Assembly (NCBI GenBank): GCA_965221905.1
Contig: OZ244922.1
Location: forward strand, 2,336,001-2,400,000
From: Chloroflexota bacterium
Lineage (GTDB): Bacteria; Chloroflexota; UBA11872; VXOZ01
Reading direction: 5' to 3'
DNA length: 64,000 bases
Part shown: positions 8,129 to 8,909 of the stretch, one piece after another
Layout of the letters: each line of letters begins with the position of its first letter
How positions within the stretch are numbered: position 1 is the first letter of the stretch
Notes under the pieces: generated by a model
Database searches by the model: none
What the model was told of the DNA's origin: nothing
The model's input: the letters and a program-made list of their open reading frames with translations, nothing else
Program-made: the position numbers and the translations under genes

Positions 8129-8724
8129 CCGGCTGGACCCGCAGGGCGCATACTTTACCTTGGGAAGGAAGTGCCCTGCAATACCCTCAGCACGATCAGC
8201 TCATCCATCTAAAGGCATCCTCAGAAGGCTCTTGGGCAATGCCACAGAGGGCTTCTGCGCGATGCCTGAGAGGGCTCTCGGTCGACGCGACGGAGATTGT
8301 ATGCGCTTTGCCGTTGACAGCGTAATCCGTTCGCCCTGAGCCTGTCGAAGGACGAACAGCCCGGGAAGACGATCCCCAAATTGCGCTTCCGTTCGCCCTG
8401 AGCCTGTCGAAGGACGAACAGCCCGGGAAGACGATCCCCAAAGTGCGCAATCCGTTCGCCCTGAGCCTGTCGAAGGGTGAACAGCCGGGGAAGACGATCC
8501 CAAAGTGGACTTCCATTCGCCCTGAGCCCGTCGCAGGGTGCACAACCGGGGAAGACGATCCCCAATGTGCGCAATCCGTTCGCCCTGAGCCTGTCGAAGG
8601 GCGCACAGCCAAGGAAGACGATCCCCAAAATTCCCTTCCGTTCGCCCTGAGCTTGTCAAAGGGTGAACAGCCAAGGAAAACGATCCCCAATGTGCGCTTC
8701 CGTTCGCCCTTATATCTTGGAAAA

Positions 8725-8885
8725 GGGAGATAGAATGGGAGCAGGCGTGGCAGACCGGTTCGTCCTAGGTCTGGCAGACCGTGGCTCAGAGTGGTCGCCA
8801 CACCTGCCGAGCTCCCCCAGAGCCCGAACAGTTACCGGGACACGAAGTCCGTATCCGTAAGGCAGGGACTGCATGGGAGCGCCAG
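8725..8885 (+). ncRNA. Predicted IS110 bridge RNA (target-binding loop ~8741-8807, donor-binding loop ~8812-8879)
   Basis: Two stem/internal-loop/hairpin modules. Guides 8758-8766 GTTCGTCCT and 8783-8789 GGCTCAG match the target; 8828-8835 ACAGTTAC and 8858-8861 TAAG match the donor junction. Transcript ends are approximate. Confidence 0.85.
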
Positions 8886-8909
8886 CCATAGTATAGCAGG
8901 AGGGAGGCA

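What the first reader, a model, noticed from the sequence alone, without database searches (positions are those of the whole stretch)
8711..8909. RNA-guided recombination system: IS110 left end encodes a bridge RNA whose guides match both the insertion target and the element's own donor junction
Seen in sequence: the 199-nt non-coding left end folds into two modules. Module 1 has outer stem GCAGGCGTGGC/GCCACACCTGC (8741-8807) and inner hairpin GGTCT-GGC-AGACC. Its internal loop carries GTTCGTCCT (8758-8766), matching the left target GTTCGCCCT at 8/9 with the one difference a U:G wobble. It also carries GGCTCAG (8783-8789), the exact reverse complement of core plus right target CTGAGCC. Module 2 (CTCCC...GGGAG, 8812-8879, inner hairpin GGAC-ACGAA-GTCC) carries ACAGTTAC (8828-8835), 7/8 with the left donor ACAGTTTC, and (G)TAAG (8857-8861), complementary to core plus right donor CTTA(T). 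Established knowledge: this is the target-binding/donor-binding loop architecture of IS110 bridge RNAs described for IS621, so the mechanism class is known. Inference: this is a compact (311-aa) and probably uncharacterised programmable recombinase whose guide, donor and target can all be read from one locus.
Basis: partly seen in the sequence, partly recalled or inferred. Interest (0 to 1): 0.93.

Follow-up and report, generated by a model that had tools for sequence, protein, structure and literature searches.

The report
IS110 insertion sequence with bridge RNA
This is a small, apparently active IS110-type jumping gene whose upstream non-coding RNA carries guide sequences matching both its insertion site and its own ends, a genuine but ordinary example of the already described bridge-RNA recombination system.

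Summary
Window 8711-9862 is a 1152-bp IS110-group element. It is present in 6 copies in this genome and is precisely inserted at CT in the REP-like site GTTCG(T/C)C-CT-GAGCC; syntenic empty sites exist in two sister genomes. It encodes a 311-aa DEDD/Ser recombinase that aligns full-length to IS621 and ISCro4, with all five catalytic residues kept. The 199-nt left end folds into two stem/internal-loop/hairpin modules supported by covariation: 89.4% of cells paired against 67.4% in shuffles, and 29 of 33 pairs with compensatory changes. The loop guides match the target (LTG 9/9 in 4 of 6 copies, RTG 7/7 in 6 of 6) and the donor (LDG 7/9, RDG 4 plus a wobble). Guides covary with flanks across five distant lineages. 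Same-genus sister elements keep the donor ends but have retargeted target loops. Handshake guides, a circle-junction promoter and a subterminal inverted repeat are also present. RNA expression and recombination activity are not shown. The verdict is a new member of a known kind. Its only departures are small size, no 5' stem-loop and a short donor-loop hairpin.

The parts
8702..8710 (+). Left target (LT, 7 nt) plus CT core (8709-8710) of this copy: GTTCGCC-CT.
   Evidence: Four other copies have GTTCGTC-CT. The syntenic empty sites read GTTCGTCCTGAGCC without interruption.
8711..9862 (+). The whole IS110-group element, 1152 bp, counted with the right-hand CT core.
   Evidence: There are 6 copies in the genome: 5 identical and 1 with a single C>T at 8843. 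Two sister genomes carry the precise empty site.
8713..8718 (+). -10-like hexamer TATCTT. It becomes a promoter only in the circular form, where it lies 17 nt downstream of TTGACA at 9842-9847.
   Evidence: Read from the sequence. No sigma-70-like site was found in the integrated context 8500-10000. TTGAC(A)-like hexamers sit at the same distance from the right end in 4 of 5 lineages. The transcription start is inferred, not shown.
8715..8720 (+). Left arm TCTTGG of a 6-bp subterminal inverted repeat. Its partner CCAAGA lies at 9849-9854.
   Evidence: Read from the sequence. Homologues keep a 3-4 bp inverted pair at the same place with different letters: GACA/TGTC, AACA/TGTT, AAGA/TCTT (read).
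8741..8807 (+). Target-binding module. It comprises stem P1a 8741-8751/8797-8807, bulged A 8752, stem P1b 8753-8756/8793-8796, and hairpin P2 8768-8772/8776-8780.
   Evidence: Structure as used for the model. Covariation is shown: all 15 P1 pairs show a both-sides change.
8758..8766 (+). Left target guide (LTG) GUUCGUCCU. It has the same sense as LT plus core, so it pairs with the bottom strand.
   Evidence: It matches 9/9 in 4 copies and 8/9 (U.G wobble) in 2 copies. It covaries with the flank in homologues.
8783..8789 (+). Right target guide (RTG) GGCUCAG, complementary to the top strand CT-GAGCC.
   Evidence: It matches 7/7 in 6 of 6 copies. Across 5 lineages, cognate matches are 24 of 25 non-core positions against 30 of 100 non-cognate. 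The G005 sister has AGCUCAG with flank CTGAGCT in 12 of 12 resolved copies.
8790..8790 (+). Target-loop handshake guide (A). It pairs with LD position 7 (T, 9860) after strand exchange and not with LT position 7.
   Evidence: Watson-Crick in 20 of 20 rows, that is 5 of 5 lineages. The pair is A:T here and C:G elsewhere. The concept comes from Hiraizumi et al. (PMC11208158).
8811..8880 (+). Donor-binding module. It comprises stem P3a 8811-8816/8875-8880, stem P3b 8823-8825/8865-8867, and hairpin P4 8838-8841/8847-8850 with loop 8842-8846.
   Evidence: P3a has 6 of 6, P3b 2 of 3 and P4 3 of 4 pairs with a both-sides change.
8828..8836 (+). Left donor guide (LDG) ACAGUUACC, compared with LD plus core ACAGTTT-CT.
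   Evidence: It matches 7/9 here. At the 7 non-core positions, cognate matches are 34 of 35 against 104 of 140 non-cognate. The core T is never matched.
8857..8862 (+). Right donor guide (RDG) GUAAG, complementary to CT-TA plus a G.T wobble, followed by handshake G at 8862, which pairs with LT position 7 (C).
   Evidence: The UAAG/CTTA pairing here corresponds to CAAG/CTTG in other lineages. This part is not significant on its own (24 of 120 permutations as good).
8910..9845 (+). Recombinase gene, 311 aa. Predicted catalytic residues are D8, E52, D94, D97 and S232.
   Evidence: Pfam DEDD_Tnp_IS110 and Transposase_20. NCBIfam NF033542, 224.8 bits against a cut-off of 140. Alignment to IS621 chain 8wt6_A places these residues on D11, E60, D102, D105 and S241 (numbering).
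9842..9847 (+). -35 hexamer TTGACA in the right end. It overlaps the stop codon at 9843-9845.
   Evidence: Read from the sequence. It is conserved in position in homologues.
9854..9862 (+). Left donor (LD) ACAGTTT plus the CT core at the right end.
9863..9867 (+). Right target (RT) GAGCC.

Best explanation
Window 8711-9862 is a recently active IS110-group insertion sequence that works like IS621.

Proposed cycle (inferred from the published IS621 mechanism):
1. When excised as a circle, the right end (-35 TTGACA) and the left end (-10 TATCTT) join into a promoter.
2. That promoter transcribes a bridge RNA of about 140-165 nt from the left end.
3. The RNA has two stem/internal-loop/hairpin modules.
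4. The first loop pairs with the genomic target. [quoted passage not shown] 5. The second loop pairs with the circle junction. LDG 8828-8836 pairs with ACAGTTT-C. RDG 8857-8861 pairs with CT-TA(T).
6. A tetramer of the 311-aa DEDD/Ser recombinase exchanges strands at the CT core. Single handshake nucleotides (8790, 8862) pair only with the exchanged strands.
7. The natural target is the 5' arm/loop boundary of a REP-like hairpin that occurs dozens of times in the genome.

Shown here: the anatomy, the copy number, precise insertion, conservation of catalytic residues, structural covariation, and guide/flank covariation.

Inferred only: transcription, the transcription start, the circle, and catalysis.
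For: (1) Family. Pfam DEDD_Tnp_IS110 (2.7e-21) and Transposase_20 (1.7e-19) match. NCBIfam 'IS110 family RNA-guided transposase' scores 224.8 bits against a cut-off of 140. PDB hits are ISCro4 (1.6e-44) and IS621 (2.4e-42) over residues 4-305, with all five catalytic residues aligned.

(2) Mobility. There are six copies, five 100% identical. The syntenic empty site ...GTTCGTCCTGAGCC... is found in 2 sister genomes.

(3) Target choice follows the guide.
- LTG matches 9/9 in 4 of 6 copies and 8/9 with a wobble in 2 of 6; RTG matches 7/7 in 6 of 6.
- The genome has 61 empty 14-bp sites, 10 of the T variant and 51 of the C variant.
- Occupancy is therefore 4 of 14 for the perfectly matched variant against 2 of 53 for the wobble variant (Fisher p = 0.015).

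(4) RNA structure. A covariance model finds a full-length plus-strand match just upstream of the CDS in 24 loci. In its alignment 89.4% of cells are paired against 67.4% in shuffles (0 of 500 as high) and 27-44% when partners are slid. 29 of 33 pairs show a both-sides change.

(5) Guide/flank covariation in 5 lineages, cognate against non-cognate non-core matches: LT 25/35 vs 53/140, RT 24/25 vs 30/100, LD 34/35 vs 104/140. The cognate assignment is the single best of 120 permutations (94 vs 88 for the next best).

(6) Same-genus sisters (71-81% aa identity) keep identical donor ends but change the target loop.
- G005 has RTG AGCUCAG, with flank CTGAGCT in 12 of 12 resolved copies.
- G016, G012 and G004 have the RTG reverse complement CTCTCCC, matching flank CT-CTCCC 7/7.

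(7) Handshake nucleotides fit the published model.

(8) A junction promoter and a subterminal inverted repeat are present. No promoter-like site exists in the integrated context.
Against: - No transcript, circle junction or recombination was observed.
- The thermodynamic fold of the single sequence is unremarkable (z = -1.44, 20 of 200 shuffles as good).
- LDG does not match the core T in any lineage, and mismatches LD position 7 here.
- RDG/RD is too short to be significant alone (24 of 120 permutations as good).
- LTG matches are only 6/9 in L010 and L011 and 5/9 in L029.
- The covariance model was built from my own structure on 2 sequences, and its alignment is fitted to that structure. RNAalifold on a plain MAFFT alignment recovered only part of it.
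- Ends of single-copy homologues were placed with terminal motifs (CTT[AG]TAT and AC[AG]G...CT). This constrains part of LD and RD, so only the LT and RT tests are fully independent.
- The element lacks the 5' stem-loop that Hiraizumi et al. call structurally conserved.
Confidence: 0.9

Rival explanations
1. The element is a true IS110 with a bridge-RNA-like left end but is no longer functional. On this reading it is a domesticated or decaying relic and the guide matches are historical.
For: No expression or activity data exist. The RNA lacks the 5' stem-loop, and its donor-loop hairpin is only 13 nt. In IS621 the longer donor-loop hairpin contacts RuvC and shortening it reduces activity. LDG mismatches LD at position 7 and at the core.
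Against: Five of the six copies are 100% identical over 1152 bp and the sixth differs by one base in a hairpin loop. The ORF is intact with all catalytic residues. Sister genomes carry empty sites at the same locus. A sister element has at least 15 copies in G005. All of this indicates recent transposition.
Confidence: 0.06
2. The functional RNA is on the opposite strand: an sX15-like antisense sRNA regulating the transposase. On this reading the plus-strand 'guides' are incidental.
For: The only Rfam match is RF02234 sX15 on the minus strand at 8732-8887, over the full model, with E = 2.2e-5. Stems read equally well on both strands, and the model itself hits the minus strand of the first module (22.6 bits). 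In Xanthomonas, sX15 is a detected RNA with a complementary partner, asX7.
Against: The match scores 43.9 bits, below the gathering score of 55. Many conserved pairs are G.U on the plus strand (for example 13 GU at columns 7/88 and 8 UG at 17/78); these would be C.A on the minus strand. The junction promoter, the guide strand logic (5' side has the sense of the top strand, 3' side is its complement) and the handshake positions only make sense on the plus strand. An antisense RNA could exist in addition, without replacing the bridge RNA.
Confidence: 0.02
3. The guide-like matches arise because the left end captured a piece of the REP target. On this reading they are a sequence duplication, not RNA guiding.
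For: The target is a highly repeated REP-like sequence with 61 empty sites. Related LT strings recur in distant lineages (xTCxTCCT in both Chloroflexota and Acidobacteriaceae).
Against: A captured REP would be contiguous and in one orientation. Here LT is copied in sense, RT is copied as its reverse complement, and a conserved hairpin separates them. Lineages with unrelated targets (L009, L010, L011, and G012/G016) show the same arrangement with their own flanks. Both together are not expected by chance (16 of 50,000 shuffles).
Confidence: 0.02

Closest known systems
IS621 (E. coli) bridge recombinase and bridge RNA (Durrant et al. 2024, PMC11208160; Hiraizumi et al. 2024, PMC11208158; PDB 8wt6)
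   Same: - The recombinase has the same domain order and catalytic DEDD plus Ser residues.
- The RNA lies in the left end upstream of the CDS.
- It has two pseudo-symmetric stem/loop/hairpin modules.
[quoted passage not shown]
- There is a CT core and a REP target.
- A bulged A sits in the first stem.
- Handshake nucleotides are present.
- A circle-junction promoter and a short subterminal inverted repeat are present.
   Different: - The protein relationship is distant (phmmer E = 2.4e-42) and the protein is 311 rather than 326 aa.
- There is no 5' stem-loop between the predicted start and the first module.
- The donor-loop hairpin is 13 nt, the same size as the target-loop hairpin. In IS621 it is longer and contacts RuvC.
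- The natural RTG is 7 nt, against 4 in IS621.
- The subterminal inverted repeat is 6 bp, against 2-3 bp.
- No experimental data exist for this element.
ISCro4 / IS622 (Citrobacter rodentium; PDB 9t56; Perry et al. 2025, bioRxiv 10.1101/2025.05.14.653916, passages read)
   Same: It is the best solved-structure hit (E = 1.6e-44, residues 4-305 aligned) and has the same architecture.
   Different: ISCro4 is 88% identical to IS621 and active in human cells. The present protein is only a distant relative and is untested.
REP-targeting IS110 elements of Pseudomonas putida: ISPpu9 (PMC12288879) and ISPpu10 (bioRxiv 10.64898/2026.03.19.712850). Only the abstracts in the listing were seen.
   Same: They have multiple copies inserted in repeated extragenic palindromes or in identical copies of one intergenic sequence.
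   Different: The host phylum and the target sequence differ. ISPpu9 carries its small RNA gene downstream of the transposase gene, whereas here the RNA lies upstream.
IS1111-group elements with seekRNA/bridge RNA in the right end (described in PMC11208160)
   Same: They use a DEDD recombinase and RNA-guided target choice.
   Different: IS1111 elements have a long right end and a short left end with 7-17 bp subterminal repeats. Here the left end is 199 nt and the right end is 17 nt after the stop codon, which is the IS110-group layout.
Rfam RF02234 sX15 (Xanthomonadaceae sRNA; Schmidtke et al. 2012, PMC3300014, passages read)
   Same: The full-length model aligns to the same 156 nt.
   Different: The match is on the opposite strand and below the gathering score. 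sX15 appears to be the antisense image of such an RNA. Rfam 15 gave no plus-strand match at E up to 10.

Membership tests
IS110-family bridge recombinase system (IS110 group, IS621 type) | Recombinase with an N-terminal DEDD RuvC-like domain and a C-terminal Tnp domain carrying the catalytic Ser. | tested here: met
   Pfam PF01548 and PF02371 match. NCBIfam NF033542 scores 224.8 bits against a cut-off of 140. D8, E52, D94, D97 and S232 align to IS621 D11, E60, D102, D105 and S241.
IS110-family bridge recombinase system (IS110 group, IS621 type) | Long non-coding left end upstream of the CDS, short right end, no terminal inverted repeats, no target duplication beyond the CT core. | tested here: met
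   The left end is 199 nt and the right end is 17 nt after the stop codon. The empty sites read GTTCGTCCTGAGCC uninterrupted. CT is present at both junctions in 6 of 6 copies.
IS110-family bridge recombinase system (IS110 group, IS621 type) | RNA with two modules, each a stem, an internal loop and a hairpin, conserved by covariation. | tested here: met
   The model matches in 24 loci. 89.4% of cells are paired against 67.4% in shuffles, and 29 of 33 pairs have both-sides changes. With 3 stray rows dropped, 585 of 657 cells are canonical. Caveat: the alignment is fitted to the model.
IS110-family bridge recombinase system (IS110 group, IS621 type) | First loop: the 5' side matches LT plus core in sense and the 3' side is complementary to core plus RT. 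| tested here: met
   LTG matches 9/9 in 4 copies and 8/9 in 2; RTG matches 7/7 in 6 of 6 copies. There is cross-lineage covariation and retargeted sister elements.
IS110-family bridge recombinase system (IS110 group, IS621 type) | Second loop: the 5' side matches LD (plus core) in sense and the 3' side is complementary to core plus RD. | tested here: met
   LDG matches 6 of 7 non-core positions here and 7 of 7 in four other lineages. RDG UAAG pairs with CTTA here, against CAAG with CTTG elsewhere. Weak points: the core T is never matched by LDG, RD alone is not significant, and LD was partly constrained by the motif used to find the right ends.
IS110-family bridge recombinase system (IS110 group, IS621 type) | Handshake guides 3' of RTG and RDG that pair with the exchanged strand. 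| tested here: met
   The target-loop handshake pairs with LD7 in 20 of 20 rows (5 of 5 lineages, A:T or C:G). The donor-loop handshake pairs with LT7 in 19 of 20 rows (4 of 5 lineages).
IS110-family bridge recombinase system (IS110 group, IS621 type) | Promoter assembled across the circle junction (-35 in the right end, -10 in the left end). | tested here: met
   TTGACA at 9842-9847, a 17-nt spacer and TATCTT at 8713-8718 can be read by coordinates. The arrangement is conserved in 4 of 5 lineages and in all same-genus sisters. This is a sequence match only; function was not tested.
IS110-family bridge recombinase system (IS110 group, IS621 type) | 5' stem-loop preceding the first module, described as structurally conserved but not essential in IS621. 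| tested here: not met
   Only about 16 nt lie between the predicted start and 8741. The sole weak hairpin (8713-8732) overlaps the -10 box and loses a pair in L008. L010, L011 and the Acidobacteriaceae elements do have such a hairpin. In IS621 its deletion only slightly reduced recombination, so I do not treat it as defining.
IS110-family bridge recombinase system (IS110 group, IS621 type) | The RNA is made, binds the recombinase, and is required and sufficient to direct recombination. | not testable with these tools
The only RNA-library data held were assembled contigs (see Tried and rejected).

The most novel reading that the evidence does not exclude
This genus carries a naturally minimal bridge system: a 1.15-kb element, a 311-314-aa recombinase, and an RNA core of about 140 nt with no 5' stem-loop and a donor-loop hairpin no longer than the target-loop one. 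It is active. Its sister elements have swapped target-loop guides between two unrelated REP families while keeping the donor module unchanged. A U at LTG position 6 lets one guide serve both REP variants, by U-A and by U.G. [quoted passage not shown]
Probability: 0.3. Interest if true: 0.5.

Novelty: new member of a known kind. Interest (0 to 1): 0.33.

Why it matters
The mechanism class is established, so this locus does not open a new question. Its value is practical and illustrative.

- It is an unusually clean natural case. Donor, target, guides, handshake bases, junction promoter, empty sites and retargeted sister elements can all be read from a few closely related genomes.
- It extends documented bridge systems to a Chloroflexota lineage. 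My one literature search for that combination listed no paper in its top 10 that mentions IS110.
- It offers a somewhat smaller recombinase and RNA pair that could be tested as an engineering scaffold.
- It explains part of the genome's repeat biology. REP-like hairpins and a 62-bp tandem array serve as landing sites, with a measurable preference for the perfectly matched variant.

Tried and rejected
- **Rfam.** There was no plus-strand family at E up to 10. The only notable hit was sX15, on the minus strand and below threshold. I kept it as a side note and did not use it for the classification.

- **RNAalifold on a plain MAFFT alignment of 13 left ends.** It gave a weak consensus (-6.54 kcal/mol, 19 pairs) because the stems of distant lineages were misaligned. 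I replaced it with a covariance model built from my own structure.

- **Expression and circle evidence.** Two runs labelled metatranscriptomic hold contigs identical to parts of the CDS (9065-9345 and 9508-9796 in one; 8950-9282 and 9656-9846 in the other). None lies on 8711-8909. Contigs cannot show absence, strand or ends, and DNA may be present in such libraries, so this says nothing either way. The joints skipping about 1250 bases (8661-8665 to 9912-9915) carry extra letters and sit in the 62-bp repeats. They come from other repeat arrays, not from the precise empty site (8710 to 9863). No circle junction was seen.

- **G005 copies.** Of 15 fetched, 12 had both canonical ends. Two (L068, L074) have a non-canonical left junction. 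For one (L070) the right end was not in the fetched range. These three were left out of the 12 of 12 count.

- **Rows dropped.** In one search I dropped three rows of alignment A4: two minus-strand partial hits and one stray window hit at 35895-35990. One search includes them.

- **Loci not used.** L040 and L047 lack a retrievable right end. In one search L040's left boundary was set one base off, so its LT count there (4/9) is wrong; read by eye it is 7/9. In one search I gave the model search 29 of the 49 sources then held, leaving out duplicate copies from the same genomes.

- **Rejected readings.** A CRISPR-like array for the 62-bp repeats was rejected because there are no unique spacers and matches are 86-94%. 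An IS1111-type element was rejected because the RNA is upstream and the right end is only 17 nt.

- **Not possible.** Supplementary tables of the bridge-RNA papers were not visible. Whether this orthologue is already in their databases therefore cannot be said.
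Full report
**What is there.**

The finding's 199 nt (8711-8909) are the left end of a 1152-bp element, 8711-9862. Its only long ORF (8910-9845, plus strand, 311 aa) carries Pfam DEDD_Tnp_IS110 and Transposase_20. 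It scores 224.8 bits on NCBIfam NF033542, 'IS110 family RNA-guided transposase', against a cut-off of 140.

Against solved structures it aligns over residues 4-305 to the ISCro4 transposase (9t56, E = 1.6e-44) and the IS621 transposase (8wt6, E = 2.4e-42). Using the IS621 numbering given by Hiraizumi et al. (PMC11208158, passages), D8, E52, D94, D97 and S232 fall on the catalytic D11, E60, D102, D105 and S241.

**Mobility and boundaries.**

The genome (one 3.52-Mb contig) holds six copies. Five are identical and one has a single C>T at 8843, in a hairpin loop.

All six are flanked by ...CCGTTCG(T/C)CCT on the left and GAGCCTGTCGAAGG... on the right. These are the two halves of a REP-like hairpin.

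For copy L002, the syntenic locus in two sister genomes (G012 and G013) reads ...catccgttcgtcctgagcctgtcgaagg... without interruption. Insertion is therefore precise, at a CT dinucleotide present once in the empty site and at both junctions of the occupied site.

In the window the element sits inside a 62-bp tandem array, 8326-8710 and 9861-10001. Each unit of the array contains the target.

**The observation.**

In 50,000 shuffles of the left end, a 9-mer within one mismatch of LT occurred 564 times and the exact 7-mer complement of core plus RT occurred 1053 times. Both occurred together 16 times. Both plus an LD-like 8-mer never occurred.

The LTG GUUCGUCCU is an exact 9/9 match to the left flank of four of the other five copies. 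The window's copy and L006 sit in the C variant, giving a U.G wobble.

The genome has 61 unoccupied GTTCGYCCTGAGCC sites, 10 of the T variant and 51 of the C variant. Occupancy is thus 4 of 14 for the perfectly matched variant against 2 of 53 for the wobble variant (Fisher p = 0.015). This is what guide-directed choice predicts.

**RNA structure.**

The single-sequence fold is unremarkable (z = -1.44). It pairs about half of the guide nucleotides with each other across the loops, whereas the stems are predicted at close to 100%. Some cross-loop pairing is built into the design, because the LTG carries CU and the RTG carries AG for the same core. Comparative evidence is therefore more informative than the single fold.

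A scan of one genome per species found 43 related loci:
- Chloroflexota at 99% and 82% identity
- a Burkholderiales MAG at 56%
- a Planctomycetota MAG at 53%
- a Tepidisphaeraceae MAG at 44%
- about 30 Acidobacteriaceae loci at 34-41%
- a Novosphingobium fragment

A covariance model built from the window and L008 with my proposed structure found a full-length plus-strand match immediately upstream of the CDS in 24 loci.

On that alignment 89.4% of cells pair, against 67.4% in shuffles (0 of 500 as high) and 27-44% when partners are slid by 1-3 columns. 29 of 33 pairs show changes on both sides. With three stray rows removed, 585 of 657 cells are canonical.

Two cautions apply. The alignment is fitted to the model, and a plain MAFFT/RNAalifold run recovered only part of the structure.

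The many conserved G.U pairs would be C.A on the other strand. This favours the plus strand.

**Guides covary with DNA.**

I took the guides by rules that use only the RNA, and I took the flanks from the element ends.

Five independent lineages (window, L009, L010, L011 and an Acidobacteriaceae representative) give the following matches at non-core positions:

| Pairing | Cognate | Non-cognate |
|---|---|---|
| LT | 25 of 35 | 53 of 140 |
| RT | 24 of 25 | 30 of 100 |
| LD | 34 of 35 | 104 of 140 |
| RD | 11 of 15 | 36 of 60 |

The true pairing of RNAs with flanks is the single best of all 120 permutations (94 against 88 for the next best).

RD alone is not significant (24 of 120 permutations as good). 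LD is partly constrained by the motif I used to locate right ends. LT and RT are independent tests.

The nucleotide after the RTG pairs with LD position 7 in 20 of 20 rows. The pair is A:T here and C:G elsewhere, and it never pairs with LT position 7. The nucleotide after the RDG pairs with LT position 7 in 19 of 20 rows. This matches the handshake guides described for IS621.

**Natural retargeting in the same genus.**

The RNA model matches 9 of 17 genomes of the genus, counting G000. The sister elements are 1157-1163 bp and their proteins are 313-314 aa, 71-81% identical to the window's. All share the donor ends ...CCAAGACAGTTTCT / TATATCTT....

In the alignment of six left ends, the stems are invariant. 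Variation is concentrated in the LTG, the RTG and the two hairpin loops.

G005 has RTG AGCUCAG, and all 12 copies with both canonical ends (of 15 fetched) are flanked by CT-GAGCT. Eleven of the 12 have LT GTTCGCCCT, matching their LTG 9/9.

G016, G012 and G004 carry an RTG whose reverse complement is CTCTCCC. They sit in ...GGCC-CT-CTCCC... of a different repeat (7/7), with LTG/LT at 7/9. This is the pattern expected of a programmable target loop paired with a fixed donor loop.

**Other parts.**

The right end holds TTGACA (9842-9847, overlapping the stop codon) 15 nt from the end. In a circle this would lie 17 nt upstream of TATCTT (8713-8718). No sigma-70-like site exists in the integrated context. 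The same arrangement is seen in 4 of 5 lineages and in all sister elements.

A 6-bp subterminal inverted repeat (CCAAGA 9849-9854 / TCTTGG 8715-8720) brackets the donor. Homologues keep a 3-4-bp inverted pair there with other letters. This corresponds to the short repeat noted by Durrant et al..

A bulged A (8752) in the first stem is conserved in the window, L008 and L010 (read). IS621 likewise has conserved flipped-out A nucleotides in its two modules.

**How it most likely works.**

It works as IS621 does (PMC11208160, passages; PMC11208158, passages). The circle-junction promoter drives the bridge RNA. The first loop reads the REP target and the second reads the circle junction. The DEDD/Ser recombinase exchanges strands at CT.

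The steps shown here are anatomy, copy number, precise insertion, and structural and guide covariation. Transcription, the circle and catalysis are inferred.

**Differences from IS621.**

- The protein is 15 aa shorter.
- There is no 5' stem-loop. L010, L011 and the Acidobacteriaceae elements have one.
- The donor-loop hairpin is only 13 nt.
- The natural RTG is 7 nt.
- The inverted repeat is longer.
- LDG does not pair with the core T in any lineage and mismatches LD position 7 here. Durrant et al. describe that position as mismatch-tolerant.

**Novelty and score.**

Durrant et al. already analysed 5,511 target-RNA and 2,201 donor-RNA pairs. Perry et al. drew 72 orthologues from that database. 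This locus is one more member of the family, although a very clean one.

I could not check whether it is already listed. My one literature search for IS110 or bridge RNA together with Chloroflexota or sponge returned 87 papers. The 10 listed contain no mention of IS110.

I score interest at 0.33 and rate novelty as a new member of a known kind.

Noticed in passing
window 8732-8887, minus strand: Rfam RF02234 (Xanthomonadaceae sRNA sX15) aligns over its whole model to the reverse complement of the bridge RNA, at 43.9 bits (below the gathering score of 55) and E = 2.2e-5. Schmidtke et al. 2012 report that sX15 has a complementary partner RNA (asX7), is antisense to a plasmid gene, and has 10 homologues in Stenotrophomonas maltophilia. 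sX15/asX7 may therefore be the two strands of an IS110 bridge-RNA locus.
   Followed up: partly
L068 and L074 (G005, a same-genus genome): Two copies of the sister element have a non-canonical left junction. The first 6-8 nt of the left end are missing. The flank reads ...GAGACAG(T/C)CTC..., resembling the element's own left donor rather than its target. This may be a donor-loop-directed or half-matched recombination product.
   Followed up: partly
window 8326-8710 and 9861-10001: A 62-bp tandem array of about 8.5 units at 86-94% matches is split by the element. Each unit contains the 14-bp target inside a hairpin-forming segment. The genome holds 61 unoccupied copies of the 14-bp site, several of them clustered in similar arrays.
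   Followed up: partly
window 8763, 8774-8775 and 8783, in run X5: A DNA run from another study holds a variant left end with T>C in the LTG, GC>CA in the hairpin loop and G>A in the RTG. These are the alleles seen in the G006 and G005 sister elements, so several guide variants coexist in nature.
   Followed up: partly
L012-L046 (Acidobacteriaceae loci): A large multi-copy family of related IS110 elements targets GTCATCCT-GAGCG in an acidobacterial repeat. Its right end is about 100 nt long, and the closing stem of its donor module overlaps the GTG start codon. Within this family, L037 and L040 carry LTG ...ATTCT and sit in ...ATTCT flanks, and L020 pairs RTG GUUCAG with flank GAACC.
   Followed up: partly
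L078 (G012): G012 carries two copies of the retargeted sister element, yet its syntenic perfect site for the window's element (GTTCGTCCTGAGCC) is empty. This is consistent with the different guide specificity, but it is a single case.
   Followed up: no
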